Assembly (NCBI GenBank): GCA_002422525.1
Contig: DIWA01000063.1
Span: 9,920 to 73,919, forward strand
Source: Candidatus Hydrogenedentes bacterium UBA6118
Lineage (GTDB): Bacteria > Hydrogenedentota > Hydrogenedentia > Hydrogenedentales > SLHB01
DNA length: 64,000 bases
Reading direction: 5' to 3'
The translations under genes were made by a program, and so were the position numbers. Positions 1 to 36,060 of this stretch are shown piece by piece; the first letter of the stretch is position 1, and the number at the start of each line of letters is the position of its first letter. Under the pieces are notes generated by a model. The model did not search any database. It worked only from the letters and a program-made list of their open reading frames with translations, and was not told where the DNA came from.

Positions 1-3000
1 TAGAAGCGGAGCTGCACCCGGTCGTCGAAGTTGCGGCCGAAGACCGTGAAGTACACCGAGTCCGCCGCACTCGGCGCCTCGCCCGCGGCCGGGTCGGCCG
101 CGCCTGCGTCGCTCGCCTCGCGCGAGACGAAGTTCGGGCGCACCTCCGTGATCACGGGCGGCCCGTCGGACACGTAGGTGTAGGCCAGCTCGTCCGGCAG
201 ATGGATCTCCAACACGTGGTCCGGGAACGCGGCGTCGTCGACGACAAGCGTCACGGGCACACGCCCGGCCAGGCCGCCGAGCGCCGGCGGCGTCACCACC
301 AGCAGCGATCCCGGCTCGCTGTCGCCCACGGGCACGTCCGGCGCGATATAGTCGAGGCCGTCGCGCGCCGTGTAGGTCTCGCCGATCTCCAGCACGCGGC
401 CCTCGACATCGCCGAACCGCACCGCCGGCAGCACGCCGCCGCGGTTGAACCCGGCGCCGTCAAGCTGCACCAGGTCGCCGCCGTCCACCACGCCGTAGCG
501 CGCGTCCGGCACGCCGGCCGCCGCCAGGTCCGCCCGGAACAGGTCCGTCACCTCCGGCGCCACGTAGCTCGGGACGAGCACGATCGCGCCCTCCAGCCGA
601 TGCGCCAACGGATTCCCGTCTTCATCCAGCGCCGGCTGGTGCGAACCGTCGTCGTGAAACACCTCAACGTCCAGCGGCACGTTGTGGTTGGCCGCCAGAC
701 CGAGGACCGGGTCCGGCTCGAGGTCCTGCACCACGAAGTCTATCCGCGACGGGGGCGACACGGCGTAGTCGGCCACGTGCGTGCCGCTCAACAGCGGCAC
801 CGCCGTCTCCGTGCCCGTGTCGTCCTGCGCCCAGACGCGCACCCGCGTGCCGTCCTCGAGAAGCTGGTACAACTGCACCGCATCCACCACCGTGCCGAAG
901 TTCGACGGGTAGTATTCGTCCGGATGCGCGAGTCGGATGGTCGTATTCGGATCCGTCGCCGTGAAGGCCATCGACCGGATCGTCCAGCGCATGTTATTGG
1001 GCAAAGTCCTCCCGGACGGTCGCGCGAACTCAACCGTCTGACCGCCGCCGGCGCTCGCATACGCGATCACGCGGCCGAAGCGCGCGTCCGTCACGTTCAA
1101 TTCGGGATGGACGCCGTGGGCGAACACCAGCTCGTAGCGGCCGCCGGGCGTCGTCGCCACGGACTGCTCGACCGAACCCACGTCATCGTAGCGCGGTATC
1201 AGGTGGACAAAGCGGTCCCCATCGTATGCCGGCGCGTCGTCCGCGACGACGTACTGGATGCCGTCCAAGCCGATGTCCCAGCCGGGCAACGCCGTGGATC
1301 CGGGCGGGAGCTCGGTCGTCGTCGCGGGCCCGTCCTCGAAGCTCGCGTTGTCCAGGGGTTCCGGGACGCGTACGAGCGACGATCCCGGCGGGATGAAGTC
1401 GGACCCGAGCAGGGTCACATCGATGCCGCCGTTCAGCGGGATCAGGCGCGGCGACACGGACCACAGCCGCGGCGGCGCAAGGACGTCGTCCGCATCCGTC
1501 CGCGGGACCCAAATCGCGCCCTCGCTCACCCAGTAGGCCGGCTCACCGCTCTGGTTATACGTCGATTCCTCGGGCAAGAGGAGCAGGACGTCCAGCGTGC
1601 CGAACTTGCCGGACGGCAGCGCCTGCGAGACGTTGAAGTAGACATCCGACTCGCCGATCCACGGCGCCGGGCCCACTTGCGTGATCTCCTCCGGATCAAC
1701 CTCATGCCCCCCGACAAACAGGCGCATATCCGTTGTGCCGAGCCAGTTCCGCACGCGCATGCGGTATTCGAAGTCCTGGTACGCGGCCGGCGTGCCTCCC
1801 GGAACCGTCGCGTCGCGGTGCACGCCCGCGATCGAGTCGACCTGCAAGATCTCGAAGTAGAGCGACTCGCCGGACTGAATGGTCTGGTTCGCCGGCCGGT
1901 TGGCCGCGTAGATCATCGCCGCCGAGACGGTCTTGACGTCGCCCGCGGCGTCGGTCGGGTTCCCCTCGACATCGAGCGCGTTGCGGACCTCCACCTCGAG
2001 GATGCGCGGCTCCGTCCCGAACACGTTCGAGAAGCCGGGGCCGTAGTCGCCCGGAAGCAGCGGAACGTCCAGGTCGATGCCCCGCTGCGTGTGGCCGCGA
2101 TGCTCCTCCACGACCTCCGTCGGCATCACGATGCCGTCGCCCGCCGCATCGACGATCTTCTCCCCGCCGGACGCCGGCTGGCGGAACGTGATCGCGAGGC
2201 CCGTGTCGAACCCGGCGCCCAGCAGCGTGCGCGGTTGCGGATCCGGCGCGACAGGGTAGACCGTAGTCCCGATGGTTACGAAGTTCGACGGCCGCCACAC
2301 CGCCGCGACGTCGAGCAGCTCGCCGCCGGCGCCGACCAGACGCCCTCCATCGAGCCCGGGCGCGCTGTCCGCGTAATAGGTGAACCCGTTGGCCAGCACG
2401 TCACGCTCGCCGTCGTAGTTGATCACTTCCACGTCGTAGGCGCCTGCCGCGCCGAACTCGGCGACCGGAATCACGACGTCGCGAATCTCGTCATAGGAGT
2501 CGCCGGCGGGGTTATCGGGTCCCTGGCGCAGCTCGGCGTAGGGGCAGACGATCCCGCCGATCTTGACGATCACCGGATGGGGTTCGCCCCCGTCAAAGGC
2601 GCCCGGGCCGATGTTCCAGCCCACGATGTCCGCCGTGAACGCGCGGTCCGCCGGATCCGCCTCCGGGTCCGCGTCGCCGGGCGTACCGCCCAGATCGCGG
2701 TAGTAGTTGGGCGAGATCTCGACCACGTCCAGCCGCGGCCCCTCGGTCGGGTCGACGTATTGATACTCCTTGAGCGGTCCCGCGGGACTGGTCGCCGACG
2801 GCGGGCCGGGGTTCACCACGAGCACGTCGATCTTGTCGGTGGGCGTCGTGCGGACCGGGGCCTGCACATACAGCTTACTGGACGACAGCCAGAGCACGCG
2901 ACCGCTCTCCTCATCGGGATCGGGCGCTTCGTCGCCGTTGAAATCGAAGTAGACCCGCGCGTCGCGCTCGAACCCGGATCCGATGATCGTGGTCCAGTTG

Positions 3001-4484
3001 CCGCCGCGCTGTTCGGGGTCGATCACATCGGTGTCCGTCCAAACCGGTCCCGTTTCCGGGATCGCCGCCGCCACCTGCGGCACGGTCGACGCGGATCCGG
3101 TGTACGTGAAACCGAGCGGAACCATGAACGCCAGACCGTCGTCGCGGATCAGATGCACGTTAACCGGGCCGGGCTTCGCCAGGTAAGACGCCGGCGCGGT
3201 CACCTCGATCATGTCGACCGTGCTGTTCGCCGCATTCACGGTCGCGGCCGTCTCCGCCCGCGAAGTGGGCCCGAAAAAGACGCGCACGGCGCCGACCGCC
3301 GCGTCATTGGTCGCGAGGTTGTTCCCGTGGATCCGCACCACGGTCGGCACGTTGTAGATCCCGTTGTCGGGCTCGAGGACGATCTCCTCGTCCGCCCACA
3401 CCAGACCGCCTTCCTCCGCGAACGGCGGGGCATCATCATCGGCGGGCTCGGCCGGATCGCGGCCGTCGCCGTTCCCGTAGACGATGGTGTTGCGCACGCG
3501 CGCGTTGGCGCCCGTCTCCACGTAGACGCCGTAGTCCTGGTTCAGCAGCACCGTACAGAAGAGAATGTCGGTGAACAGCCCGGCATCCGGATCCGCCGGC
3601 GTCTGGACCCACACGCCCGCCTTGCTCGAATACTGCTTGTCCAGCCAGCGCTCCATCCAGGGAGGCGTCTCGTCGTCCTCGCCGAGGCCGAAGTCCTCCG
3701 GCAAGGCGTTGCTGTAGCCGCCGATCACGCAGTTCACCAGCAACGGCGCCGCGTTGCCTTCCACCAGCACGCCCGCGCTGGCGCCGCCGGGCAGCATCAG
3801 CGCCTGCGACGCCCCGAGGATGATGCATCGGCTCAGCGTGGGTCGGATCGCGGGCTCGCCTTCCTCGCTGCCCTGGATCCGCACCCGGTACGGCCCGTTG
3901 CGGATCGTCAGCCCTTCGATGAGCACGTTGCTCAGTCGTTCCTCGAACGTCGCCGCGCTGTCCTCGGCGCCGGGGGTATAGCGGTAGTACATCCACGGGT
4001 CGGAGGCGCCGTCAGGCGCGCGCTCCGTATGGATCTCAAACACGCCGCTGCTGTCGTCGACCCCGCCGCCGTCCACGGTCACCATCCACGGGCGCCCCAC
4101 GGCGCGCTCGTCCTCCTGATCGTCAGGCGTCAGGCCGATCACATGGATGTTCGCGTCGCCGGGGATGCGGATCGGAGCCGTCTCCGTGTACTCGCCCTGC
4201 TCCACCCACACCGCCACGCGCTCGCCCGTCTGATAGGCTTCCTCGAGCGCCATCTCGACGCCCTCGCGAACCGTGGCGGCGTCCGCGGCGGCATTGTCAT
4301 CGCTCACGACAACCGTGTTCGGGGGAATGACCGGCGGCAACTGGGCCGCGGCGAACGGACTGAACGCGCAAAGCAACGCGGCCAGCGCCGAAACGGTCGC
4401 GAACGCGCCGCGGCGGGACGCGGCACGCTCCACGCTGAGATGGCGCCCTCCGGTCCTGAATCGTTCCCAGAGTCGATGCCGCAT
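1..4484 (-). CDS. Giant secreted protein (>1494 aa, runs off the left edge): N-terminal right-handed parallel beta-helix-like region, multiple IPT/TIG-like repeats, and a DUF642/choice-of-anchor-C-like domain
   Basis: Not in the ORF track because there is no stop inside the window. Translated by hand from ATG at 4484 (AGGAG 9 nt upstream; alternative in-frame ATG at 4493): MRHRLWERF...SRRGAFATVSALAALLCAFSPFAAA|QLPP. Beta-helix-like rungs include SNVLIEGLTIRNG, PTLSRCIILG, PLLVNCVIG, YGVYV and VRNTIVYGN. Seven IPT/TIG-like G-x-x-F/L motifs (VVRIHGNNL, WTTIIGSGF, TADIVGWNI, RTLLGAGF, DVTLLGSDF, LVQLDGAGF, YFTVFGRNF). NASFEDG...GWDIG...VEQSVATTPGGRYELVF...MRWT..AFTAT..TTIRL...VDAV lies at ~862-1349. 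The frame read open wherever checked, down to base 3. Confidence 0.85.
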   Translation of the reverse strand, partial: MRHRLWERFRTGGRHLSVERAASRRGAFATVSALAALLCAFSPFAAAQLPPVIPPNTVVVSDDNAAADAATVREGVEMALEEAYQTGERVAVWVEQGEYTETAPIRIPGDANIHVIGLTPDDQEDERAVGRPWMVTVDGGGVDDSSGVFEIHTERAPDGASDPWMYYRYTPGAEDSAATFEERLSNVLIEGLTIRNGPYRVRIQGSEEGEPAIRPTLSRCIILGASQALMLPGGASAGVLVEGNAAPLLVNCVIGGYSNALPEDFGLGEDDETPPWMERWLDKQYSSKAGVWVQTPADPDAGLFTDILFCTVLLNQDYGVYVETGANARVRNTIVYGNGDGRDPAEPADDDAPPFAEEGGLVWADEEIVLEPDNGIYNVPTVVRIHGNNLATNDAAVGAVRVFFGPTSRAETAATVNAANSTVDMIEVTAPASYLAKPGPVNVHLIRDDGLAFMVPLGFTYTGSASTVPQVAAAIPETGPVWTDTDVIDPEQRGGNWTTIIGSGFERDARVYFDFNGDEAPDPDEESGRVLWLSSSKLYVQAPVRTTPTDKIDVLVVNPGPPSATSPAGPLKEYQYVDPTEGPRLDVVEISPNYYRDLGGTPGDADPEADPADRAFTADIVGWNIGPGAFDGGEPHPVIVKIGGIVCPYAELRQGPDNPAGDSYDEIRDVVIPVAEFGAAGAYDVEVINYDGERDVLANGFTYYADSAPGLDGGRLVGAGGELLDVAAVWRPSNFVTIGTTVYPVAPDPQPRTLLGAGFDTGLAITFRQPASGGEKIVDAAGDGIVMPTEVVEEHRGHTQRGIDLDVPLLPGDYGPGFSNVFGTEPRILEVEVRNALDVEGNPTDAAGDVKTVSAAMIYAANRPANQTIQSGESLYFEILQVDSIAGVHRDATVPGGTPAAYQDFEYRMRVRNWLGTTDMRLFVGGHEVDPEEITQVGPAPWIGESDVYFNVSQALPSGKFGTLDVLLLLPEESTYNQSGEPAYWVSEGAIWVPRTDADDVLAPPRLWSVSPRLIPLNGGIDVTLLGSDFIPPGSSLVRVPEPLDNASFEDGPATTTELPPGSTALPGWDIGLDGIQYVVADDAPAYDGDRFVHLIPRYDDVGSVEQSVATTPGGRYELVFAHGVHPELNVTDARFGRVIAYASAGGGQTVEFARPSGRTLPNNMRWTIRSMAFTATDPNTTIRLAHPDEYYPSNFGTVVDAVQLYQLLEDGTRVRVWAQDDTGTETAVPLLSGTHVADYAVSPPSRIDFVVQDLEPDPVLGLAANHNVPLDVEVFHDDGSHQPALDEDGNPLAHRLEGAIVLVPSYVAPEVTDLFRADLAAAGVPDARYGVVDGGDLVQLDGAGFNRGGVLPAVRFGDVEGRVLEIGETYTARDGLDYIAPDVPVGDSEPGSLLVVTPPALGGLAGRVPVTLVVDDAAFPDHVLEIHLPDELAYTYVSDGPPVITEVRPNFVSREASDAGAADPAAGEAPSAADSVYFTVFGRNFDDRVQLRF

Positions 4485-4647
4485 ATCGTTCATCTCCTGT
4501 CCCGCTCAGCCCCGATGCGCGCGGGTTGTGTATCCGTATGTCCGCCCCGCCGTCTCCCGCTCCGCGGGAAGGCATCGGGCGGCCCGGCGTCTATGTTGCG
4601 GGCGAGCCGCGACGCGCAGCGACTGCACGGGCCCGCCGCCTCGCCAT

Positions 4648-7600
4648 CTATCGCTCGTAGACCGTCCGGATCTTCTTCTCGCCCGTCACGACGAAGCGGT
4701 TGCGCCAGTCCACCACCCGGACCGGCGTCCCCGCCGCGTCCTCGACATCCAGCACGGCGTCGTTCGTCACATAGCCGGACTGACCCAGCACGATCACCTC
4801 GAAAACGTCCGAATGCGTCGTGACCAGGTTCGACAACCGCGTGAACCGCTGGATCTTCTCGTCATACACGATGGGCGCCATCGGGTCGGTCTCGTCGGGC
4901 CACTCCGTCGGCTCGACCCAGTCCACCGGCCACAGGTGACTCAACCGGCCCGTGCGGAGGATGAAGGTCGGATCGACCAGCGGCTCGGTCGGGTCGGCGG
5001 CCAAGGCCCCGAGACCGCGCGTCAGCAGCTCGGCCGCGTTGCGGTAGTATCGGCCGTCGTAATGCGCCGGCGCGGAGCTCTCGATGCCGGCGGCCACCCC
5101 CTGCGCGTCCACATAGAACGCCTCGGACGGACTGATGCCGTCGAGTTCGCCGGGAAAACTCAGGACCAGTCGCGGCGGGTCGCCGACTTCATCGACCACC
5201 GTCCGCGCACGCATCAGCGCGCCCGGCGCGCCGACCAACGGGTTCAGCGGCTTCGTGCCGCCATCGTAGTCCAGGATGGCCGTGGCCGCCGTGTTGACGT
5301 TGACCTTGCCCGGCGTGCGTCGGCTCGACGTCAGGATCACCCGCGAGAACCGGTTCAGCCGGCCGCCCTGCGCCCAGTTCCGCAGCAGCAGCGCGAGGTA
5401 GTTGTTCTCAACCGTCACCTGACCGTAGTAGACCAGCCCCTCGGTGGACGGCTCCGGCGCCACCTGAAGCCCGAACGACTCCTGCGGCGCGAGCGGATCG
5501 CCCGTGATGCCGCGGTTCATCAGCGCCGGCGCGGGCGCGTCCGCACCCGACCAGCACCGACGGTTGCCGTCGCGGTCCGTGAAGAACTCGACCGTGATGC
5601 CCATCTCTTCGGGACGCACCCGCTGTTCGATCAGCGTCTTCGGGTCGAACCGGTCGTCATGCGCCGCGGCCGTGGCGAACAGATCGCCCACGCGATCCGC
5701 GTCGATCCCCGCCAGCCGCTCGTACACGTCATCCAGCCGGCTCAGGTCGTCCATCGTCACCACGTAGACGTCGTAGGCCCCGTTCTCGAGCCCGTCGTCG
5801 CCGTCCCACACGAACAACGCCTCGGCCGGGGGCATGTCGTCCGGCATGCTCCACAGATCGACGTCGTTCGGATCCACATACGAGCCGTCCTCCTGCGTGG
5901 GCTGGAAGTCCTGCGGGTTCATCGACACGTACATCACCGTGCGCCGCAACAGCGACCACCGCGCGCGCAAGGCCGCGTAGTAGTCCGTCACCCCGCCCGG
6001 CGTCGTCGGATAGCCCGGTGGGAGCAACCGCGGCGAGTCATAGGGGTCGGCGGGGGGATCCCGTTCGAGCCGCGGACGGAACAGGAAGTTGAGCTGCACC
6101 GGCACGTCCATCGCCGCGGTCGGGTCGACCTCCGCCAACGGCTGCACCGAGCCCATCGCGTACGTGTCCTCCAGCCCCGGATCCGTCACAAGCGGGTCGT
6201 CGGGCAAGGGGAACAGGAAGATCGGCGTCCACGCGCGCGGCCGCACGTTCGGGTCGCCCGGCGTGGTCACGTCGTACCACTCGATGAACTCGGTGTACTC
6301 CGCTTCGGTGTATGCGGCGGGGTCCGGCCACAGCGGGTAGAAGTCCGCCTGCCCCGCCGTCAGGGTCAGCGTCGCGTGCGTACCCGATTCGATCAGCTTC
6401 TCGAGCTCGCGCACCGAGTCGTCCACGCCCGCATCGAACAGCACGCCGTTGCGACCCATCAGCACCTTGTCCAGCCGCTCGACGGCCGCCGCGTCGGCGC
6501 CGAGAAGCGCCGTCATGCCGAACTGGTGCAACGTCGCGAGCTGGCCCGGCGTCGTATACGGCCGGTTGCGCACGTTCGCGCGCGGATGTTGCCACGCCAG
6601 CACGTCGTTCTCGATGCGCGTCGCCGTGATGTCCCCGGTCTCCACCGTGCGGTGGAGGAAGTTCATCCGGCCCGGCGTGCCCGACAGGCCATGGGTCAGG
6701 TCCGCCCGGATAACGTCGGCGTCGACGGGGTCGGGCTGGTACCAGACGCCGTCGCCGAAGTAGAACGGCCCTTGCCCGCCGTCCCACTCGTCATAGGCGC
6801 CGTCGGTCGCCTCCCACCGGTTCGTCGTGCCGGCGAGGTCGCCGTGGTACAGCGGGTGCTTGCGCTCGAGCGACCGATAGAAGTCGATCCCCATCGTGTT
6901 TTCAGGCCACATGCGCAGATTCGCCGGATCCAGCGCCGCCTCGCCGTTCTCGTTCACGTAGGGGCAGATCACGCCGTCGTCCAGCGCCCGGTTCTCGACA
7001 TCGAGCTGGGTGTAGGTGACCCGGTCAACGACGCGCGCCTCCGACTGCGGCCCTTCGTACAACGTCACGAACACCGCATCCCCTGGGAAGAACCGCCGCT
7101 CGATGAACCGCTTCCAGTCCGGCGGATCCGCGGCGCCGCCGAGGTAGTCGCCGCTGAGCACTTCGAGGTCGTCGAGCTCGGTACGGAACGCATGGTTGAC
7201 CGGATCAGGGTGATAGGCGCCCGGCACGGCCACGGGCACGCCCGCCCGGCGCGCTTCGAGCAGGTATCGGCCTTCGTCGACCCCTTCGTAGGCCTCGTCG
7301 ACGCCCAGGTTGTCGAAATCCGGGTTGCCGGCGGCGCCAAGATACTCGAACGCGCCGCTGAACTGGTCATAGCGCAGGTACGACGTCCCGGAGTTGTCCA
7401 CGCCGTCGTTGCTCAGCACCGAGTTGTCCAGGTCATTGTCTTCCCAGTCCTCCTCGGGCGCGTTCGGGAACACCCCGCCGTCGAGCACGACGCGCGCGAG
7501 CTGTGCGAGCCGCGCGGAGGGGTTCGTGCCGAGCCGATCGAGCGAGATCTCGCTGAGCTGCACGATCCGGTCCCACGGCTTGCGCGCCTCGGACCCGAAC

Positions 7601-10600
7601 GCCGGTTCGAGGTCCGGTCCGGGGTAGTTCGCCGGCCAGTCGTTCGCCGTCGACTGGATCCGCCACTCCACCGGGAACGGCTCGATGATCTGCTCCAGGT
7701 CTGGGTCGAACCGGAAGTCGTCATTGATGGCGTAGTCCACGCCGCCGACGTTCACAACCACTGGAACGCCGGAGTTGCCCAGCAGCGCATCGCCATCGGC
7801 GTCGAGGAAGTCGACCCACTCGTTCACGCTCGCCAGGCCGGTTTCGGCATCGTGCAGCGGCAGCGCCAACGGCGTCCGGAAGAAGATGCTGTCCCCAAGC
7901 GGCCGGTTGATCAGCAATGGGTCGTCGGCCACGCGGAACGGTCGCACCGGCGGGAATGGGGGCACGGTGATCTGCGCGGCCCGCGTGCCGGCGACGCCGA
8001 ACATGGGGAACATGGCATCGTCATCGGTCGCGGCCAGGCCGATGCCGTTCCTGCGCAGCACGCTCAGCGCCGAGAAGTCGCCGTCGGCCGATGTGCTCTG
8101 GTTGAACTTGTCCGCCCCGACATCGAACTTCGTGACCGCGAGGATCAGCGAACCGCCGGGGGCGATCCGCGTGCCCTCGGGCACGGTGAACAGGCGGTGG
8201 TGGCGCTGGGTCGCCGTGCGGCCCACCTGCAGCCGCCAGTCCGACATGTCGATGTACTGGTCCTCGATCGGGCGCACGGGATCGACCGCGGCGACGTTCA
8301 CCACCTCGACCCACTCGTGGTCCGGCTCCTGGCTGAACTCAAAGTAGTTCACGACGAGGTCATCGTTGAGCGGATCGCCGGTGGTGTATTGGGGATCATC
8401 GCTCTTCCAGACTCCGAGATACAGGTACTCCTGGTCCGCCGGATCCGCCGCATACTCCGGAATCACCACCGTGTACGCGTAGAACTCGTCGCGGTTGCCG
8501 TAGGGCGCCAACCGCCCGTCCAGCGTCGGGTCGGGCTCGGGCAGGGACGGCAGGAACACCATGCCGGTCTCGCGTTGGGCGCCGTCGACGTCAGGCCGCG
8601 TGCCGATGATCGGTCCGTCGCCCGCGTCGCCCTTGTGCACCACATTGCCCGCTTCCATCATCGGCTCATAGTCGTAGCCGACGTCGGGCAGGACGTCCTG
8701 GAAGGCGCCGCCGCCGAGGAAGTCCAGGTAGTTGATCTCGGACCCCGTCACGAACCCCACGGCGTCGCTCAGGATATCTTCGTCCGCCTGGCCGTACTTG
8801 ATCACGTAGTTCAGCTTGTTCTCCTGGCCTTGCAGCATCGTCGTCGTGGCGGCGTCGCCGTTGCGCGTCACGTTGGCCAGCAGATAGTAGCGTCCCGGAG
8901 GCAGACCCGGTCCCGGACCGAACCGGAACTGGATCATGTTCGGCGTCTCGTGCCACTCGTCGCCGAACGCCAGCGGCGTGGGCGGCGGCGCCGCGATCGC
9001 GACCGTCGTCGCGGAGACGTCGTTGATCACGTTATCCGCATCCACGAAGCGCGAGGAGAAGCTGACGTACGATCCCGCGCCCAGGTGATAGGCCTTCGGG
9101 TCGCTGGCATCCTCGCCAGGCATGTAGCGTCGACCGGCGACGGCGATGGAAGGCGCCGCGGGCACGCCGTAGCTCGATCCGGGAGGGAGGGGATCGAGAC
9201 CCGTGTCATTCACCCACACGGGCCGCCCGTCCCAAAGGCTCCGCGCCGGGTCGATGGGCACGGTGTAGTTGTCGAAGGTGTGCAGGTTGCTGGGCCCGTT
9301 GCCCGCCGCGACGATCCGGTCGCGCGGCAACGTCGCCTGCGTCATGTCGAAGTCCAGCTTGCCGTAGTCGTCGACGAACTCCTGCGGCGTGAAGTAGTTC
9401 GGGTTGAACTGCTCGGCGAGGCGATCCTCGAGGATCTCGCCGCCGGGCACGTAGGCCCACCGAAAGAGCTGCGGATCCGGCGGCGCGAGCGTGTTGTACA
9501 TCTCCGCCTCGATCCGGCGGACGGGGCGCGCCATGATCTCGTTGATGCGGATGCTCTCGATGCCCGCGCTGGTGTAGTTGATGCGCCGGTTGACGCCGAG
9601 GCCGACGTCCGCGGCCCAATCATCGCCGGTCGACGACGTCAGCGTGGTCCGCGCGGCGTCCGGGTCGCGGTTGTCGGTGATGTTGACGGCGGTCTGCTGG
9701 ACCCGCAGGACCGGGTCGATCTCGAACGACGTCGGCCCGGACGGCCCGAGCAGCGGCGCGGTCGCGTCGGACTCGAACCGGACGCCTTCGACCCGCAGCC
9801 CCTGAGCGAACCGTTCCGCCGCGGTCAGGGCCGGGTCGGACGCGAACCGCGGCCGATAGCCGAGATCGTTGATGGTCGCCGTGGCGATCTGCGACGGCGT
9901 CGCGAGGTTGTAGTTCAGCTTCAGCCCCGACAACGCCGGCGCGTCGCCTTCAAGATTGTAGCGATAGTTGCGGTCCGCCGAATGCACCGTCAACTCATTG
10001 CGGTTGCGGCTGAACGTGGTCCCGCCGATGCCCGTTACGAGCTTGATCTGTTCGCGCGTGTAGTACTGATGGTCGCCCAGTTCGCCCAGTTCGTCGGTCT
10101 TCGTGTCGCCGAACGGCGCATCGTTGTTCACCCCGTCGCCTTCCGCGACCAAGTTGCGATGCGGCCGGAACTGACGCTGCTCTTCCGGCGCGTCGATGCC
10201 CTCGAACTGCCCCAGCAAGTACTGGTAGCGATCGTCGTAGCCGTCGTCGACATACTCCGAGAACTGGATACCCAGCAGACCATCATCAAGGTCGTGCAGA
10301 AGCTCCCCGGTGTAGGGGTCAATCAGGTACAGACGACCCTTGTCGAAATCGATCTCGCCGTCGCCGTCGAGATCGCCCGCCTTGGGCAGCGCGAACCCTT
10401 CGTCGATCAGGCCGTCGCCGTCGTTGTCGATGCCGTCGTAAGCCATCCAGAACGCGTCGCCGTCGTCATCGACGCGGCCGTACCCCGGCAGGTTCGCGTC
10501 GTAGACATACGGAACGGCCTCGACAGCCGCCAGCCGGTCGTCGTCCGGATAGAAGTAGTCGCCGCCGGTCTGCACGCCGGGCTCGGTTGGGAACGTGCGC

Positions 10601-20281: not shown

Positions 20282-22147
20282 CTAGTCTGCGGCGGCCCGA
20301 TCGCCGCCCTGTTTCAGCGGTTCATCCTGATGGGTGACCCGCAACACTTCTTCCAGGGTGGTGACGCCTCGGGTCGCCTTGAGCCAAGCGTCCTCGCGCA
20401 GCGTGTGCATGCCTTCTTTGCGCGCCGCGCGGCGGAGCCGCGCCGAAGAGGCGCCCTGCATGATGAGCGTACGCACAGTGTCCGTCGTCATCATCAGCTC
20501 ATACACGCCCTGCCGCCCCTGATAGCCCGTTCCCGTGCAGTTCTCACAGCCCTTGCCGTAGAACAACTCCACTTCGTCTGGGTTCACAGGGAAACCGAGT
20601 CGCTCGAGCGACTCCTGATCCGGTTGGATAGGCGCCTTGCAGGTGGTGCACAGCGTGCGCACGAGGCGCTGCGCCAGCACCACGCGCACGCCCGAAGCCA
20701 CCAGGAATGGCTTCATGCCGATATCCACCAGGCGGATGAATGCGCTGGGCGCGTCGTTCGTGTGGAGCGTACTGAACACCAAGTGGCCTGTCAGCGCCGC
20801 ACGCACGGCGATCTCCGCCGTCTCCTGGTCACGAATCTCACCGACCATCACGATGTCGGGGTCGACGCGGAAGATGGCGCGGAGCGCACGCGCGAAATCC
20901 CAGCCGATCTCATGCTGGATCTGCACCTGGTTGATGCCGTCCATCATGTACTCGACCGGGTCCTCGATGGTGATCAGCTTGTTCTTGACCGTGTTGAGCT
21001 TGTGAAGCGAAGCGTAGAGGGTGGTCGTCTTGCCCGAACCCGTGGGCCCGGTCACCAGCATCACGCCCGAACCCTGCCCAAGCAGGCCCTCCCACTTCTT
21101 CTGGTCGTCCGGGTTGAACCCGAGCTGCCCCAAACCGAGCGTCAGGCCGCTCTTGTCCAGGATACGCATGACGATCGTCTCGCCGTACACGGAAGGAAGG
21201 CAGCTCACGCGCAGGTCGAGCATCTTGCCGCCGATGGTGATCTTGATACGTCCGTCCTGCGTCACCCGGCGTTCGGCGATGTCCATCCCGGCCATGATCT
21301 TGAGTCGCGAAATGATCGACGGCTGCGCCCGTTTCGGCGGTCGCGGCATCAGATGCAGCACGCCGTCGATCCGGTACCGCACCTTGAGGTCGTACTTCCC
21401 GGGCTCGACGTGAATATCACTCGCGCGCAGCCGGAACGCCTCGGTAATCAGGTTGTGCACATAGCGCACCACCGGACTGTTCGCGTCGTCCCCGTCGTCA
21501 TCGAGGTTGCCGCCCCCGCTCCCTACCGACTCCTCGTCAAAGTCGACGCTGTCTACGCTGATGCTGCTCATGCTGATGTCGCCCGCCGACATGCTCGAGG
21601 CATCCAGCGAACTCACATTGGACATCGTGCTCAGCGTGCTCATCGAGCTGGCGCTGCTCACGGTCGACAGCATGGACTCGACGGTCTGCTCCCCCACACC
21701 GTAGTACCGCTGCAATGCCGATCGGACATCTTCCTCGCTCGCGAGGCTCGGTTCGATCCGCGCATCCAACAGCCGCTCCAGGTTGTCGATGTTGTTGATG
21801 TTCGTGGGGTCCGACATCGCCAACGAGATCGTGTTGCCGTCTTTGCCGAGAGGAATCACACGGTACAACGTCGCAATGTTGGGGTCGACGAGATTTCGGA
21901 CGCGCTCGGGGATCTCGCGCTCCGACAGATTGACCACGGGAATCCCCAACTGATCGGCCAGACCCTCCGTGATGTGGCTCTTGCTGATGTAGCCCATCCG
22001 AACGAGGATCTCGCCGAGCTTCCGGTGGGTCATCGACGATTGCTGCCGATGTATCGCTTCGTCGAGCTGCTGCTGAGAGATGATATTGCGCTCGACGAGC
22101 CGCTGCCCGAAGAGGCTGTAAGTCTGCTGCTGCTGCACGTCTAGCAC
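20282..22147 (-). CDS. pilB: PilB/GspE-family assembly ATPase 1 with MshEN-type N-domain and Ser/Met-rich linker
   Basis: KLGEILVRMGYI; RASDIHVEP; GPTGSGKTTT; FRVDPDIVMVGEIRD; TGHLVFSTLHTND; LCTTC...GCENC. GTG start with AAGGGG RBS. Confidence 0.93.
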   Translation of the reverse strand: MLDVQQQQTYSLFGQRLVERNIISQQQLDEAIHRQQSSMTHRKLGEILVRMGYISKSHITEGLADQLGIPVVNLSEREIPERVRNLVDPNIATLYRVIPLGKDGNTISLAMSDPTNINNIDNLERLLDARIEPSLASEEDVRSALQRYYGVGEQTVESMLSTVSSASSMSTLSTMSNVSSLDASSMSAGDISMSSISVDSVDFDEESVGSGGGNLDDDGDDANSPVVRYVHNLITEAFRLRASDIHVEPGKYDLKVRYRIDGVLHLMPRPPKRAQPSIISRLKIMAGMDIAERRVTQDGRIKITIGGKMLDLRVSCLPSVYGETIVMRILDKSGLTLGLGQLGFNPDDQKKWEGLLGQGSGVMLVTGPTGSGKTTTLYASLHKLNTVKNKLITIEDPVEYMMDGINQVQIQHEIGWDFARALRAIFRVDPDIVMVGEIRDQETAEIAVRAALTGHLVFSTLHTNDAPSAFIRLVDIGMKPFLVASGVRVVLAQRLVRTLCTTCKAPIQPDQESLERLGFPVNPDEVELFYGKGCENCTGTGYQGRQGVYELMMTTDTVRTLIMQGASSARLRRAARKEGMHTLREDAWLKATRGVTTLEEVLRVTHQDEPLKQGGDRAAAD

Positions 22148-22167
22148 CCCTTACGTTGGCCGCCTGA

Positions 22168-22197
22168 ACTGTACCAGAGTCATGGCGGACTTGTCAA
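22168..22197 (-). promoter_or_regulatory. Putative sigma70 promoter of the pilus operon (TTGACA-N18-TACAGT, extended TG)
   Basis: Minus strand reads ttgaca agtccgccatgactctgg tacagt, ending ~20 nt before the GTG at 22147, inside a locally AT-rich patch. Confidence 0.6.
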
Positions 22198-22628
22198 TGT
22201 AAATAGTGCGAGTTAGTATTGATAACACTGCACTTACAGCGGAAATCGTCAACAGATCTCTTGACTCCCAGTCCGCCCCCGCATTCGTCCCCCGGAGCGC
22301 TCGGATGTCCGTCAACTGCATCTGGTTCGGTATTCCGTTTCCGCCCTTGCCCGGCGGCCCGCAGTGTCATATCAAACTGGTTCAGGTCTTCCCGTCGCAC
22401 ACCCCTGAGCGACATCCCCAGCCTCTCGACCCGCACCGTCTACTTCAAATGGTAGCACATCACCGCCCAAGATGGCGGATCCATCTGCGCGCGGCGCCCC
22501 GCCGATCCGTTCGCGTCCACTACCCAAGCTCGCATTCTGTCCGCCTCCCGGCGGGGAAGTCAAGCGAAAGTCGGCGCAAAGACGGGCGAGGCCTCCGAGA
22601 TCCGCGCCGCGTACGCAGGCGAACCATG

Positions 22629-22660
22629 GCGGCGGCGGGGTCGTGGGGCCCCGCCGCCGC
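22629..22660. terminator. Perfect 12-bp GC stem-loop just downstream of the metal-efflux operon
   Basis: gcggcggcgggg-tcgtgggg-ccccgccgccgc, ~20 nt after the stop at 22683. No U-tract, so terminator function is uncertain. Confidence 0.45.
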
Positions 22661-22682
22661 GCGCGTCAGACCCGTCAGTCCG

Positions 22683-23378
22683 TCAGTCCGTCGCGTCCAG
22701 TTTGCTGAGATACTCGGCCGGAGCCGCCTCGATGGCCTCAACGCACGCCGGGCAGCACAGCCGGACGAGCCGTCCCGCAACCACCTTGTCGACGGGTTCG
22801 CCCATCGCGTCGAGCGACTTGCCGCTGACGACACAGACCGTCTGGGGATAATCCGCCTTCTGGTCTTCCACGACGGCATCGTTCAGCTTGGCGATGTACG
22901 ACGCCGGGTCGTCCTCGAACTTGCCGACGCACCCCGCACAGCACAACCGCACGAGCCGGTTCTTGTACACCAGCTCCACCGGGCCGCCCATGGCGTCCAG
23001 ATCGCCGCCGCCGACCACGCACGTCGTCAACGGATAGAGGGGCCGCTGCTGCTCGGCGATGGCCAGGTCCGCCTTCTCGAGAACGCCGGCGGGATCGGCT
23101 CTGAGCTGGGACTCACACCCCGCGCAGCACAGCCGCACCTCCCGACCATCCACCTCCACGACCGCCGGATCGCCCATGGAGCCGAGCTTCTGTCCGGTCA
23201 CGGGGCAGAAGTCGAGCAGGTAGGGATCGCCGTCCCAGGCTTCCGCCTTCTTGGCGCCCTTGTCCGACTTGGCCGAGGCCGTCTCCGACGCTTCTTCAGC
23301 CAGCGCGATCGGCGTCACAGCCAGGAGCGCCAGCGCCAACGTAAGGGCGGCGGTCCGTGTATTCACAATGTGTTGCAT
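22683..23378 (-). CDS. Periplasmic heavy-metal-binding protein with three TRASH/YHS-like repeats
   Basis: GGAGG RBS 8 nt before ATG at 23378; signal peptide (...LLAVTPIALA|EE); three C-x-V-x-G...L-C-C-x-x-C units (CPVTG..LCCAGC, CVVGG..LCCAGC, CVVSG..LCCPAC). Confidence 0.8.
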   Translation of the reverse strand: MQHIVNTRTAALTLALALLAVTPIALAEEASETASAKSDKGAKKAEAWDGDPYLLDFCPVTGQKLGSMGDPAVVEVDGREVRLCCAGCESQLRADPAGVLEKADLAIAEQQRPLYPLTTCVVGGGDLDAMGGPVELVYKNRLVRLCCAGCVGKFEDDPASYIAKLNDAVVEDQKADYPQTVCVVSGKSLDAMGEPVDKVVAGRLVRLCCPACVEAIEAAPAEYLSKLDATD

Positions 23379-23493
23379 GGTGTCTTCCTCCATCGGGTTC
23401 GGGGCATCAGACGCCCCAGGTCGTCCACAGCGACGCGGCCGGCGCACGGCAACAGGCGCGCGCGCTCCCGCGCCGGTATGCCCACGGCCCGCG

Positions 23494-25053
23494 CTACTCG
23501 CGCGCAACCGGTGATGGGTCCGTCTCGTCCTCCGCGGCCTCCCGATCGCGCGGTGCGATCGGCTCGGCCGGATCGGCGGTCTGCGGATCGGAAGCGGCAT
23601 CCTCCGTCCAGGGCCCGCCCATGAGGTACTCCAGACGCGCCGCGGCCAGCCGACGGTCGCGGTCGGCCTCGAATCCCGCCAGCTCGTACGTAAGGATTCG
23701 CTGCACGCTCTCCATCAGATCCACGAACCCAGCCGTACCATGGCCGACGGCGTAGCGCCCCTGCAGGCTCTCGAACGTCTGCCGCGCCTGCGGCAGGAGG
23801 GTCTCCCGGTACAGCGCCCGACGGCGTTCCGCATCGCTGAGCTCGAACATCGCCTCCTGCACGGCGGCGTCGATCTCGAGAGAAGCCTTCCGTTTCTCAT
23901 GCACCACGGCCTTCTCCATCAGCCGCGCCTCGGCGACGCCCGCGCGGATCTTCTTGCGCCAGATGGGCAGATTGACGCTCACCGACAACACGATGTCGTC
24001 CTCCCCGCCGTCGGAGTAGTTCATGGGTTCGAAGGTCGTGGCCAGCCCATAGGCGTTGATCGAAGCCCGGGTCAGGTTGAACGGCGCCGCCCCGGACAGC
24101 ATGCCGCCGAGCCCCTCGAGCGCCATCAGCGATCCGCTCCCGATGCGGTCGGGCAGCATCTCCCTGGGCTTGCTCTTCCCCATGTACTCGAGACCCACCG
24201 TGACGTCCGGAAAGCCCGCCTTCCGGGCGACCTCGGCCTGCTTCCGCCGGCCTTCGGCGAGCCGATCGAACGCCTGCAACGAAGGATTCGCGACGCGCGC
24301 GCGGGCCAGGGCCACCGGCTGCGGCGGCGGCGACGCCTCGGGCGGGCTCGGCGTGTCGGCGGAATCGGGCCCTGTCGCGGCCAGCTCCGGCCACGGGAAC
24401 TCCGGCCCCGGATCGCGCCCGACCGCGGCAAGCAGCCGCCCCGACAGGGCCGGGCGCATGTCGTGCAGCCGTTGGTAGGCGTCCTCGAGCTCCGCTTCCG
24501 CCATCGACACGCGCAGCAGCTCGTCGTCGCCCGCCAGCCCGAGCGCGAGCTTCGAACGCACGATGTCCTCGACGTAGGCCAGCACCTCGGCCTGCGACCG
24601 GGTCGTCTCGATCCGCTGTGCGAGGAAGGCGTACTCGTAGTACGCGCTCTTCACCTCCGCGACGACGCGGTTGCGTGCGTCGAACAAACGGCGCAGCACG
24701 GCGTCGGCCTCGGCCTGCGCCTGTTCGCCGCGCAGACGACGCGTACCGGACCACGGAAAGCGCTGGCTCAGCATCACGCGAAAGCGGTTGATCTCGGACT
24801 GCAGGAACTGCCCGTAGGTGAACATCGGGTCGTCAAGCGCGGTGACTTGCGGGATTCGTTCCAGCGCGGCCAGCCACTCCGCGTGCAGCGCGCGCACACC
24901 GGGGCTGCGCTCGACGGCTTCCGCCAGCAGACGCCCCAGTTCCTCGGTCTCGGCGCTGTACACGGCCCGAGGAAGGTCGGACTCAACGACGTCCATCGTC
25001 GAGACGCCGGCGGCGCCTGAACTCACAAAGACAAGCAGAAGGGGGACGATCAT
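23494..25053 (-). CDS. TolC-family outer-membrane factor of the heavy-metal RND system (CusC/CzcC-like)
   Basis: Signal peptide; LSQRFPWSG, VAEVKSAYYEY, FPDVTVG, SVNLPIWR; ATGA overlap with cusA. Confidence 0.88.
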   Translation of the reverse strand: MIVPLLLVFVSSGAAGVSTMDVVESDLPRAVYSAETEELGRLLAEAVERSPGVRALHAEWLAALERIPQVTALDDPMFTYGQFLQSEINRFRVMLSQRFPWSGTRRLRGEQAQAEADAVLRRLFDARNRVVAEVKSAYYEYAFLAQRIETTRSQAEVLAYVEDIVRSKLALGLAGDDELLRVSMAEAELEDAYQRLHDMRPALSGRLLAAVGRDPGPEFPWPELAATGPDSADTPSPPEASPPPQPVALARARVANPSLQAFDRLAEGRRKQAEVARKAGFPDVTVGLEYMGKSKPREMLPDRIGSGSLMALEGLGGMLSGAAPFNLTRASINAYGLATTFEPMNYSDGGEDDIVLSVSVNLPIWRKKIRAGVAEARLMEKAVVHEKRKASLEIDAAVQEAMFELSDAERRRALYRETLLPQARQTFESLQGRYAVGHGTAGFVDLMESVQRILTYELAGFEADRDRRLAAARLEYLMGGPWTEDAASDPQTADPAEPIAPRDREAAEDETDPSPVARE

Positions 25054-30948: not shown

Positions 30949-31101
30949 CTCGCACTCCTCTGACACCAGTTGCGATCCACGGGAAGACAGGCGACGCTGG
31001 ACGCGAGCAGGGGCGAGGGGCGCTTGGCAAAGCCCGATCGCCGCGCCTATCCACGACGACACAGCACGCCCGGCCGCGTCAGCGACGCAGGGCGAGGCGG
31101 A

Positions 31102-35303: not shown

Positions 35304-35450
35304 GGCGGCAAGCATACACAAGCGGCCCCGCCCGCCGCCAACGCCAGAGCGCCGCCGACGCCGAACCGCCCCGGGGCCAGGCCCCGGATACGGCTCTCCA
35401 TGCACCTGCAGACAACGCACTTGGGGCCATCTGCACCGGGGATTTGGCTC

Positions 35451-35479
35451 TTGACCCCATCTGGACCCCGTGGTATACT
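35451..35479 (+). promoter_or_regulatory. Putative sigma70 promoter (TTGACC-N17-TATACT, extended TG)
   Basis: ttgacc ccatctggaccccgtgg tatact, upstream of the lipoprotein gene. Confidence 0.65.
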
Positions 35480-35601
35480 CTGGACACGACGTAAGGGGTG
35501 TCTGTGCATCCGCATTCTGTCGATCTGTTGGTGGATGGCGGAACGGACGGGCAGACAGCCCTGTTAAGTATCTGGAAGGAAATCGAAGGAGGGAAAACGC
35601 C

Positions 35602-36060
35602 ATGCTGAAATACGGCAAGTTTCTGCCGCTCGTCGTCCTGGTCACGTTGACCGTGGGCGCACTCGTCGGTTGTCCGGGTCTGGTTCCGGGCAACGCATTC
35701 AAGGTCGTGAACTTCAGTGGTCAGGTGATGACCTCACTGGCCCTTCGCGATCAGGCCGCCGGGAACTGGAGCCCGAACGTGCTGCCCGAAGCGATCCTCG
35801 AGGATGGCAAAGGCGCCGCGATCACGGGTATCCCGGATGGCATCTACGACGCTCGCGCCGTCTTCAATACGCCTACGCTTCCGTTCGTGAAGGACGCTGA
35901 AGGCGCCTACGACGCCGAAGCGGAGAAGAGCACGGCCGTGGTCACGCTGCTGCAGTTCGACGTTCCGATCGACACTCGCGGTACGTGGGAGTGGATCTTC
36001 ACGTCGCTCGCAATCGGCGACGACAGCATCATCGTCGACAACCTGCGCCTGACCGAATAA
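35602..36060 (+). CDS. Lipoprotein of unknown function
   Basis: GGAGGG RBS, then MLKYGKFLPLVVLVTLTVGALVG|CPG with lipobox LVGC; predicted beta-rich mature part. Confidence 0.8.
   Translation: MLKYGKFLPLVVLVTLTVGALVGCPGLVPGNAFKVVNFSGQVMTSLALRDQAAGNWSPNVLPEAILEDGKGAAITGIPDGIYDARAVFNTPTLPFVKDAEGAYDAEAEKSTAVVTLLQFDVPIDTRGTWEWIFTSLAIGDDSIIVDNLRLTE

What the first reader, a model, noticed from the sequence alone, without database searches (positions are those of the whole stretch)
1..22197. Candidate new type IV filament system: GspG-like pilin plus PilT, two assembly ATPases, and two giant tip-type proteins
Seen: one apparent promoter followed by a co-oriented run of ATPase1-pilT-ATPase2-pilC-G-H-I-J-K(2448 aa)-giant secreted protein. 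Established: canonical T2SS have a GspG pseudopilin and no PilT, while T4aP have PilT with a PilA-type pilin and a fimU-pilV-pilW-pilX-pilY1 tip operon. The Verru_Chthon cassette (proteins A-D) is a known PVC-superphylum arrangement with a large PilX-like A protein. This locus mixes these features: T2SS-type major subunit motifs, a retraction motor, T4aP gene order, and a K-type subunit several times the usual size. No secretin, PilMNOP/GspCLM or prepilin peptidase gene was found in the window. Inference: a retractile filament with a very large Ca-binding, carbohydrate-binding tip, perhaps for adhering to or reeling in polymers, surfaces or cells.
Basis: partly seen in the sequence, partly recalled or inferred. 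Interest (0 to 1): 0.85.

Follow-up and report, generated by a model that had tools for sequence, protein, structure and literature searches.

The report
Hydrogenedentota type IV pilus with giant tip
This is one end of a roughly 40-kb, phylum-wide conserved gene cluster for a retractable type IV pilus in uncultured Hydrogenedentota, ordinary in its motors but unusual in carrying a 2,448-residue tip pilin and a swappable giant partner protein.

Summary
The genes are real, on the minus strand: PilB-like ATPase, PilT, second PilB-like ATPase, PilC, five pilin-type genes (G, H, I, J and a 2,448-aa K), then a giant secreted protein cut by the window edge (2,625 aa in full).

The "missing" parts are a window-edge artefact. 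On the source contig the cluster continues with a PilM::PilN-type fusion, a PilO/GspM-like protein, a small PilP-position protein and a TPR-secretin.

The same order recurs in dozens of metagenomic loci. Nearly every named relative is Candidatus Hydrogenedentes/-ota.

The mosaic is real:
- Both assembly ATPases score nearer to PilB than to GspE.
- PilT is bona fide.
- The major subunit is GspG-like, including the C-terminal GGGDDINSW loop.
- The PilM-to-secretin module best matches the Akkermansia Amuc_1101/1100/1098 families, though far below their cut-offs.
- K is GspK/PilX-like only at its first ~80 residues and in short motifs.
- The downstream giants vary in body but share a conserved ~40-residue C-terminal tail, which suggests docking.

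Verdict: a lineage-specific variant of a T4aP-class machine related to PVC-type pili, not a categorically new system. Tip display of K and the giant is inferred. Interest is moderate.

The parts
22168..22197 (-). Sigma-70-like promoter match (TTGACA-18-TACAGT, TG upstream) about 20 nt upstream of ATPase1
   Evidence: 10 of 12 matches. It is a consensus match only: 5 sites in the region against 2.1 expected. No Rfam element in the 530-nt leader.
20282..22147 (-). Assembly ATPase 1 (PilB-like, 618-621 aa): N-terminal MshEN c-di-GMP-binding-type domain, Ser-rich linker, two CxxC pairs
   Evidence: T2SSE 3.5e-131 and MshEN 3.9e-21. PilB model 612 bits against GspE 572, both below cut-off; c-di-GMP motif 57 bits against cut-off 38. 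PDB: PilB/PilF 478-504 bits, GspE 376-395. CxxC pairs.
19115..20269 (-). PilT retraction ATPase (384 aa)
   Evidence: TIGR01420 pilT_fam 479 bits against cut-off 319. AIQNLIRE motif at residue 291. 82-88% identical in relatives.
17305..19044 (-). Assembly ATPase 2 (PilB-like, 579 aa) with MshEN domain; 40% identical to ATPase 1
   Evidence: PilB 608.5 bits, GspE 602.4; c-di-GMP motif 62 bits against 38. PDB: PilF/PilB 487-507 bits, GspE 403-420. Paralogue identity.
16023..17291 (-). PilC/GspF platform protein (414-422 aa, depending on the start codon)
   Evidence: T2SSF 3.7e-66. PilC (Myxococcus-type model) 439 bits against GspF 422.6, so it does not discriminate.
15132..15941 (-). GspG-like major (pseudo)pilin, 269 aa, with insertions; G|FTLIE processing motif; DPWKTQY and C-terminal GGGDDINSW motifs
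   Evidence: N_methyl 1.8e-10. TIGR01710 gives 50.7 bits, below its 88.85 cut-off and N-terminal only. Family hhalign against E. coli GspG: 98.3%, E 1.5e-14 over residues 1-163. More than 350 clusters, generically named.
14089..15132 (-). Minor pilin in the GspH/FimU position (338-347 aa)
   Evidence: N_methyl 7.5e-10. Only the N-terminal helix aligns: GspH 31.7 bits, Verru_Chthon D 31.1, both below cut-off; hhalign.
13557..14087 (-). Minor pilin in the GspI/PilV position (176 aa)
   Evidence: N_methyl. PilV 32.1 bits against cut-off 52. The assignment rests on gene order; hhalign is ambiguous.
12243..13541 (-). Minor pilin in the GspJ/PilW position (420-432 aa)
   Evidence: N_methyl. hhalign is best against GspJ, 88.8% over 68 columns. 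Verru_Chthon C 19.7 bits against cut-off 256.
4648..11994 (-). Giant K-type (GspK/PilX-class) pilin-like protein, 2,448 aa: GspK-like N-terminal helix without Glu5, acidic DxDxDG repeats, split lamin-tail (LTD) domain, conserved C-terminal beta module
   Evidence: GspK model 1.7e-8 (residues 8-83) and PilX_N 3e-4 to 3e-5. hhalign against E. coli GspK 66-71% over 80 residues. 30 clusters of 1,746-2,914 aa; 182 clusters at 50% identity. Conserved motifs. Four DxDxDG motifs against 0.57 expected, net charge -223. No PDB sequence or fold match.
1..4484 (-). N-terminal 1,494 aa of a 2,625-aa secreted protein (signal peptide with an SRRGAF motif; IPT/TIG; DUF642/choice-of-anchor C); cut by the window edge
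   Evidence: Proteins at this position vary in body (about 1,000-2,600 aa; Beta_helix, TIG, or no Pfam domain) but share a C-terminal tail TPAxxxFxVVP...Q-P-[IV]-K...E.

Best explanation
The window holds the first two-thirds of a single-locus, roughly 40-kb type IV filament system that is conserved across Candidatus Hydrogenedentota.

Most likely mechanism:
1. An unlinked prepilin peptidase processes the G, H, I and J prepilins.
2. On the PilC platform, two paralogous PilB-type ATPases polymerise a filament of GspG-like subunits. Both carry MshEN-type c-di-GMP-binding N-domains.
3. An H-I-J-K initiation complex primes the filament and stays at its tip.
4. K contributes a GspK-like N-terminal helix and a conserved C-terminal beta module to that complex. 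Its roughly 2,000-residue acidic, DxDxDG-rich, LTD-containing insert forms a very large distal head.
5. The lineage-variable large secreted protein encoded next (here TIG plus DUF642) docks through its conserved roughly 40-residue C-terminal tail, as PilY1 and MshQ tails do.
6. The fibre passes a TPR-fused secretin, which is held in register by a PilM::PilN-type fusion, a PilO/GspM-like protein and a PilP-position protein.
7. PilT retracts the fibre, pulling the cell towards whatever the tip binds, or reeling that material in.

Shown here: gene content, order, conservation and family affinities.
Inferred: tip location of K, docking of the giant, retraction, and the ligand.
For: - Components and order.
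- The cluster continues with a PilM fusion (PilM_2 4e-47; TIGR01175 185 bits against cut-off 133; one TM segment at residues 373-395), bitopic proteins of 321 and 161 aa, and a TPR+STN secretin N-terminus. A full-length secretin is seen in relatives (Secretin 4.5e-35).
- Conserved synteny in L007, L008, L090, L093 and about 40 metagenome loci. K lies upstream in 21 of 29 loci, and O/P/secretin lie downstream in 23 of 23.
- PilT passes its curated cut-off and carries AIQNLIRE.
- Both ATPases are about 80-120 bits nearer to PilB/PilF than to GspE among solved structures. Both pass the c-di-GMP-motif cut-off.
- G is homologous to GspG.
- K has a GspK-like N-terminus, sits after J, and is conserved end to end.
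- A conserved tail is shared by 22-23 otherwise different downstream proteins. This fits the published beta-strand-addition model for PilY1/MshQ/CpaL (PMC13533445).
Against: - There is no direct evidence for a filament, for retraction, or for K or the giant being at a tip.
- K's homology to GspK is significant only for about 80 N-terminal residues. The C-terminal module has no Pfam or PDB match, and the models were of low confidence (pLDDT 60-65).
- The H/I/J assignments rest on order and N-terminal helices.
- The PilN, PilO and PilP labels rest on topology, position and weak hits: 5 of 27 family members hit GspM.
- The major subunit is T2SS-like, so an endopilus or secretion role is not excluded.
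- 8 of 29 loci carry the PilM-to-secretin module without K upstream.
- No prepilin peptidase lies in the locus.
Confidence: 0.68

Rival explanations
1. It is a T2SS-like secretion or surface-display machine. The G-H-I-J-K set forms a short periplasmic endopilus that pushes the adjacent large protein (the cargo) through the secretin. The cargo's conserved C-terminal tail is its recognition signal, and PilT merely speeds endopilus disassembly.
For: - The major subunit is GspG-like, with the Ca-loop motif.
- K's C-terminus ends in a conserved strand in cis, as in GspK.
- The PilM::PilN fusion has GspL-like topology.
- 5 of 27 members of the p321 family hit GspM.
- The variable, enzyme-like neighbours (Beta_helix, DUF642) resemble substrates encoded beside T2SS operons.
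- The so-called T2SS of Bacteroidetes clusters with T4aP (PMC6668835).
Against: - PilT is conserved inside the operon.
- Both ATPases are PilB-like.
- The cytoplasmic domain matches PilM; GspL was not among its family matches.
- A 2,448-aa K cap is hard to reconcile with a periplasmic piston.
- No GspC was found: the only GspC-like alignment, for the 161-aa family, is not significant.
Confidence: 0.15
2. K and the downstream giant are independent surface adhesins or envelope proteins that merely sit in the pilus locus. K's N-terminus is a plain membrane anchor and not a pilin helix.
For: - Only about 80 residues of K resemble GspK, and K lacks an N_methyl motif.
- No fold or sequence match for the rest.
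- 8 of 29 loci have PilM-to-secretin without K.
Against: - K always follows J in the loci where it is present. Its N- and C-termini are the best conserved parts.
- GspK and PilX normally lack Glu5 (general knowledge of the family).
- The DEASxVNLN and TPGRININT motifs occur in the same order as the two xNLN motifs of E. coli GspK.
Confidence: 0.09
3. It is a DNA-uptake (competence) pilus whose large tip proteins bind DNA.
For: - It is a T4aP-class machine with PilT.
- K carries an LTD domain and HhH-like xNxNT motifs. Large competence-associated tip pilins such as ComZ are known (from memory).
Against: - No ComEA, ComEC or DprA in the cluster.
- K and the giant are extremely acidic, with net charges of -223 and -248, which is unfavourable for DNA binding.
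- The xNxNT motifs are also structural features of GspK.
Confidence: 0.05

Closest known systems
Type IVa pilus (Myxococcus/Geobacter/Thermus type, with pilB-pilT-pilC and pilMNOPQ)
   Same: - PilB-like ATPases, PilT, PilC, PilM, a secretin, and a pilin followed by four minor pilins and a large non-core protein in the PilY1 position.
- Gene order pilB-pilT-...-pilC (order in the reference organisms recalled from memory).
   Different: - Two PilB paralogues flank pilT.
- The major subunit is GspG-like, not PilA-like.
- PilM is fused to a PilN-like segment.
- The secretin carries N-terminal TPRs; no AMIN domain was among its family matches.
- The PilX/K protein is 2,448 aa.
- The downstream protein has no PilY1 domain.
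- Everything lies in one locus.
Type II secretion system endopilus GspG-H-I-J-K
   Same: - G shares the fold-level signature and Ca-loop motif of GspG.
- The order G-H-I-J-K is the same.
- K has a GspK-like N-terminus without Glu5, and its own conserved terminal strand.
   Different: - PilT is present.
- The ATPases are nearer to PilB.
- There is a PilM domain rather than a GspL domain.
- No GspC was found (only a non-significant alignment of the 161-aa family).
- All curated T2SS models score below cut-off.
- H, J and K are 2 to 7.5 times the usual size.
Akkermansia muciniphila Amuc_1098-1102 'type IV pili' cluster, and the Verru_Chthon cassette A-D (PVC superphylum)
   Same: - The PilM fusion's best NCBIfam match is Amuc_1101_fam. 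It aligns to model position 478 of 608, past the PilM domain.
- The next gene weakly hits Amuc_1100_fam.
- The secretin hits Amuc_1098_fam, and the gene order is the same: 1101-1100-1099-1098.
- H-I-J-K hit Verru_Chthon D-B-C-A one to one, in the gene order of the window.
   Different: - All scores are far below the curated cut-offs: 257 against 650, 112 against 750, 25 against 332.
- K is about twice the Verru_Chthon A model length.
- The phylum is different.
- I could not fetch an Akkermansia locus to compare the ATPase and pilin half.
Large tip proteins: PilY1/PilC, MshQ, CpaL/TadG (PMC13533445)
   Same: - K resembles CpaL in layout: an N-terminal pilin-like part, a long middle and a conserved extreme C-terminus.
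- The downstream giant resembles MshQ and PilY1 in position, right after the I-J-K genes. It also has a conserved C-terminal peptide.
   Different: - There is no sequence homology to any of them.
- Sizes are 2 to 4 times larger.
- Both a cis-type K and a tailed partner are present together.
- Docking was not modelled here.

Membership tests
T4aP | PilB-type assembly ATPase | tested here: met
   Both ATPases score 478-507 bits against PilB/PilF structures and 376-420 against GspE. They fall below the TIGR02538 equivalog cut-off: 612 and 608 bits against 676.
T4aP | PilT retraction ATPase | tested here: met
   TIGR01420 479 bits against cut-off 319; AIQNLIRE motif present.
T4aP | PilM-PilN-PilO-PilP alignment complex | tested here: inconclusive
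   The PilM domain is met (185 bits against 133). PilN is inferred from the fused TM and coiled-coil segment. The PilO-like protein has only weak GspM or Amuc_1100 hits, in 5 and 2 of 27 members. The PilP label rests on position only.
T4aP | PilQ secretin | tested here: inconclusive
   The Secretin domain is clear in relatives (4.5e-35). GspD 142, MshL 139 and PilQ 138 bits are indistinguishable and all below cut-off. The window contig's own copy is cut by the contig end.
T4aP | PilA-type major pilin and PilY1 adhesin | tested here: not met
   The major subunit is GspG-like. The downstream protein has no PilY1 domain.
T2SS | GspG major pseudopilin | tested here: inconclusive
   hhalign 98.3%, E 1.5e-14, plus the DPWG..Y and DDIxxW motifs. 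TIGR01710 gives only 50.7 bits against 88.85, and Pfam T2SSG was not hit.
T2SS | GspE ATPase, GspL/GspM/GspC, and absence of PilT | tested here: not met
   The ATPases are nearer to PilB. The cytoplasmic domain is PilM, not GspL. GspM hits are weak and occur in a minority of members. No GspC was found (only a non-significant alignment). PilT is present.
GspK/PilX minor pilin | N-terminal hydrophobic helix without Glu5, position after J, pilin beta-sheet completed by a C-terminal strand | tested here: inconclusive
   The N-terminus matches GspK (1.7e-8; hhalign 66-71%) and PilX_N (21-24 bits against 25.5), and the position after J fits. The C-terminal module has no detectable match, and the model was of low confidence.
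Verru_Chthon cassette A-D | Scores above the TIGR02596/02598/02599/02600 cut-offs | tested here: not met
   31.1 against 70, 18.4 against 51, 19.7 against 256, and 24.6 against 332. The one-to-one correspondence is the only shared feature. Shorter K-module relatives also score only 22-25 bits.
Amuc_1098-1101 pilus families | Scores above the NF045709/NF038287/NF042912 cut-offs | tested here: not met
   257-270 against 650, at most 17 against 180, and 112 against 750. These are the best or among the best matches, with the same gene order.
MSH pilus | MshE-type ATPase, MshL secretin, MshA pilin | tested here: not met
   The MshEN domain is present in both ATPases. MshL gives 139 bits against 250. 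The MshA match is limited to the first 33 residues, at E 0.0097.

The most novel reading that the evidence does not exclude
Hydrogenedentota, with distant cousins in the PVC group, carry a distinct and so far undescribed subclass of type IV filament that sits between T4aP and T2SS. It would have T2SS-type G-K subunits on a retractile, PilM/PilT-equipped, two-PilB motor. Its tip would be built from what may be the largest pilin-like proteins yet seen (2,000-3,300 aa; this is my recollection of the field, not a survey), plus an exchangeable giant 'warhead' that plugs in through a conserved C-terminal strand. That would make a modular harpoon for capturing polymers or cells.
Probability: 0.2. Interest if true: 0.75.

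Novelty: new variant of a known kind. Interest (0 to 1): 0.5.

Why it matters
- It would give an uncultured, widespread phylum (anaerobic digesters, sediments, mats) a defined surface machine.
- It would extend the known size range of pilin-like tip subunits roughly 7-fold over GspK.
- It offers a natural test of the recent beta-strand-addition model. One system contains both a cis-type K and a family of body-variable partners that share one C-terminal tail.
- It links the medically discussed Akkermansia Amuc_1100 cluster to a broader, older family of PilM-fusion/PilO-like/secretin modules.

Tried and rejected
- PDB sequence searches with profiles of K, of the 321-aa family and of the 161-aa family gave nothing usable.
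- Pfam on K's N- and C-terminal segments at E up to 10 returned only PilX_N.
- hhalign of a 'middle-deleted' K alignment against E. coli GspK was significant only for the first 80 residues.
- AlphaFold models of K 1750-2448 (pLDDT 60) and K 800-1800 (pLDDT 65, pTM 0.79) gave no Foldseek hit with E below 0.03. The first drew a cloud of CBM/lectin beta-sandwiches, which I treat as a hint only.
- The one genome-contig scan was largely wasted. One of these is labelled Nitrospirales but has the full synteny, with motor proteins about 70-84% identical to the window's.
- The metagenome scan did not return the source contig. I reached it through the protein index instead.
- No riboswitch or other Rfam family lies in the 530-nt leader or anywhere in the window.
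- No paper found by the three literature searches on the phylum appears to describe its pili.
Full report
**What is in the window**

The window has about 67% G+C and is full of spurious ORFs. Third-position GC (0.84-0.90) picks out one co-oriented run on the minus strand:

| Gene | Window coordinates | Size |
|---|---|---|
| ATPase1 | 20282-22147 | 621 aa |
| PilT | 19115-20269 | 384 aa |
| ATPase2 | 17305-19044 | 579 aa |
| PilC | 16023-17291 | 422 aa |
| Pilin G | 15132-15941 | 269 aa |
| Pilin H | 14089-15132 | 347 aa |
| Pilin I | 13557-14087 | 176 aa |
| Pilin J | 12243-13541 | 432 aa |
| K | 4648-11994 | 2,448 aa |
| Giant secreted protein | 1-4484 | runs off the window |

- Gaps between genes are 1-81 nt, except J-K (248 nt) and K-giant (about 160 nt).
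- The 'one promoter' is a 10-of-12 sigma-70 consensus match at 22197-22168. Such matches are only modestly enriched in the region, 5 against 2.1 expected.
- Terminator-like hits equal the shuffle expectation, and none on the coding strand lies in a gap between the genes.
- The long plus-strand ORFs over K and the giant are antisense shadows.
- Upstream of the promoter lie an unrelated TRASH-domain gene and a CusCBA-like efflux operon.

**The cluster does not end at the window edge**

- The identical proteins lie on a 116.7-kb contig (ENA ERZ27315036 k141_348770; JGI 3300002498 TOLCLC_10011629).
- There the giant is 2,625 aa (IPT/TIG, DUF642/choice-of-anchor C).
- It is followed by four more genes:
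  - a 783-aa protein with a PilM domain, one TM segment at residues 373-395, a coiled coil and a periplasmic part;
  - a 321-aa bitopic protein;
  - a 161-aa protein with an N-terminal hydrophobic segment;
  - a protein with a signal peptide, TPRs and an STN domain, cut by the contig end at 617 aa.
- In relatives this last gene is a 950-997-aa secretin (Secretin 4.5e-35), and unrelated genes follow it.
- No prepilin peptidase was found in the window (tblastn with E. coli GspO) or among the genes called at the cluster's downstream end.

**Conservation and host**

- K has 30 relatives at 90% clustering, 1,746-2,914 aa long, all named 'hypothetical'.
- A search of every 50% cluster with K's last 279 residues finds 182 clusters. 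Nearly all full-length members are 1,950-3,370 aa, with the match at the extreme C-terminus.
- The PilM fusion has more than 512 clusters and the G pilin more than 350.
- Nearly every relative that carries an organism name is Candidatus Hydrogenedentes/-ota. The exceptions are single entries labelled Nitrospiraceae and FCB group.
- One locus labelled Nitrospirales has the full synteny, with motor proteins about 70-84% identical to the window's, so that label is doubtful.
- Synteny is the same in four long contigs and across the metagenome loci.
  - After dereplication, 21 of 29 loci with at least 9 kb upstream of the PilM gene have K there.
  - 23 of 23 loci with enough downstream sequence have the O-like gene, the P-position gene and the secretin.
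  - Eight loci carry the PilM-to-secretin module behind a TPR gene instead, so the system is either split or a second copy.
- Most relatives also have a PEGA plus FGE-sulfatase-domain gene between the variable giant and pilM. This contig lacks it.

**What kind of machine it is**

- PilT passes its curated cut-off and carries AIQNLIRE.
- The two assembly ATPases:
  - They are 40% identical to each other, so they are old paralogues.
  - Both have MshEN domains that pass the c-di-GMP-motif cut-off, and both have two CxxC pairs.
  - Both score about 80-120 bits higher against solved PilB/PilF than against GspE.
- PilC/GspF and the secretin cannot be assigned to T4aP or T2SS.
- The first pilin is truly GspG-like.
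  - A five-member family alignment matches E. coli GspG at 98.3% probability (E 1.5e-14), through the 'LP.DPWG..Y' core.
  - All five members end with GGGDD[IV][NS][NS]WD, against E. coli's GTEDDITNW.
  - It still scores below the curated GspG cut-off, because of about 120 inserted residues.
- H, I and J match known minor pilins only in their N-terminal helices. J is best against GspJ.
- The PilM fusion's best curated match is the Akkermansia Amuc_1101 family, aligned beyond the PilM domain.
  - The O-like family weakly hits GspM (5 of 27 members) and Amuc_1100 (2 of 27).
  - The secretin hits Amuc_1098.
  - The gene order equals Amuc_1101-1100-1099-1098.
- H-I-J-K hit Verru_Chthon cassette D-B-C-A one to one, far below cut-off.
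- The system is thus a T4aP-class motor and alignment complex carrying T2SS-style subunits. Its closest described cousins are in the PVC group.
- Denise et al. note that T4aP is paraphyletic and that chimeric 'generic' systems exist. The mixture is therefore unusual but not outside the known superfamily.

**K**

- E. coli GspK is 327 aa. K is 7.5 times larger.
- Its first 80 residues align to GspK (NCBIfam 1.7e-8; hhalign 66-71%), including RGAALLI without Glu5 and TSLDHAW against GspK's TTLQQYW.
- Two xNxNT motifs, DEASRVNLNTA near residue 380 and TPGKVNVNTA near residue 2230, occur in the same order as the two xNLN motifs of GspK.
- The family ends in an almost invariant TTRSDVFEI...EKKxRTVYER. 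These last points are motif-level inference only.
- Between the ends lie acidic DxDxDG repeats (4 in this protein against 0.57 expected; net charge -223) and a lamin-tail domain split by nested insertions.
- Two AlphaFold models had only moderate confidence and no significant structural neighbour. The C-terminal model drew non-significant CBM/lectin matches.
- The layout (a pilin-like N-terminus, a long middle, and a conserved extreme C-terminus) is that described for CpaL/TadG. A terminal strand supplied in cis is the T2SS GspK solution (PMC13533445).

**The downstream giant**

- Proteins at this position differ widely: 1,013 aa with Beta_helix, 1,465 aa with no Pfam domain, 2,342 aa with TIG, and 2,625 aa with TIG plus DUF642.
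- In 22-23 distinct examples the last roughly 40 residues are nevertheless alignable: D-x-[TS]-P-A-x3-F-x-V-V-P, a short spacer, then [DE]-x-Q-P-[IV]-K-x4-E at the very end.
- A shared tail on otherwise unrelated bodies, encoded right after the I-J-K genes, is what the beta-strand-addition model predicts for PilY1- and MshQ-type tip partners.
- This is my main new observation. It is the basis for calling the giant a dockable tip protein, but docking was not modelled.

**Verdict**

It is wrong that the alignment complex and secretin are absent, and 'new system' overstates the case.
- The best reading (confidence about 0.68) is a phylum-specific, single-locus, retractile T4aP-class pilus with GspG-type subunits, two c-di-GMP-sensing PilB paralogues, a giant GspK-class tip pilin and an exchangeable giant partner.
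- The main rival (about 0.15) is a T2SS-like exporter or display machine for that partner.
- I found no publication describing it.
- Novelty: a new variant of a known kind. Interest: moderate.

Noticed in passing
L092:10001-12352 (residues ~515-620 and ~690-740) and L092:14100-15950 (residues ~340-420); outside the window, same contig: There are long Gly/Met-rich low-complexity linkers (GGMMGGMPGMPGMGGG...) in the periplasmic part of the PilM::PilN fusion and in the secretin N-terminal region. The secretin also has Gly/Tyr/Thr-rich runs, and the 321-aa protein has a Ser-rich tail. Their function is unknown.
   Followed up: no
window 22683-31062 (-): A TRASH-domain protein is followed by a CusC/CusA/CusB-like heavy-metal RND efflux set (OEP, ACR_tran, HlyD_D23+HMBD) directly upstream of the pilus cluster. 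It is unrelated to the finding.
   Followed up: partly
window 31710-35720 (-): A 1,336-aa protein has only a weak Alpha-amylase catalytic-domain hit (4.6e-6). It may be a large glycoside hydrolase.
   Followed up: no
L044, L050-L053, L062, L063, L065, L080 (upstream of position ~10000): In 8 of 29 dereplicated loci the PilM-fusion/O/P/secretin module follows a TPR protein rather than K, the giant and the PEGA-FGE gene. This is either a split locus or a second paralogous module.
   Followed up: partly
L007:19443-20855, L008:23303-24628, L093:8374-9747: A PEGA plus FGE-sulfatase-domain protein lies between the variable giant and pilM in 31 of 47 dereplicated loci with at least 2 kb upstream. It is missing from the window's own contig, which has a 500-nt gap there instead.
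   Followed up: partly
L090 (CAYYRW010000014.1) and L091: Records titled 'uncultured Nitrospirales bacterium' carry the full Hydrogenedentota-type cluster, with motor proteins about 70-84% identical to the window's. The taxonomic label is probably wrong.
   Followed up: no
window 20282-22147 (-), residues ~160-205: A Ser-rich low-complexity linker (SMLSTVSSASSMSTLSTMSNVSS...) lies between the MshEN domain and the ATPase core of ATPase1 only.
   Followed up: no
window 22150-22680: A 530-nt leader upstream of ATPase1 has a second promoter-like site at 22563-22534(-). It contains no Rfam match and, in particular, no c-di-GMP riboswitch.
   Followed up: yes
P0271, P0257, P0250 (1,222-1,303 aa): These shorter proteins share K's C-terminal module and a GspK-like N-terminus, and they weakly hit Verru_Chthon A at one or two regions. 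They may be intermediates between the PVC cassette protein A and the giant K family, or they may be fragments.
   Followed up: partly
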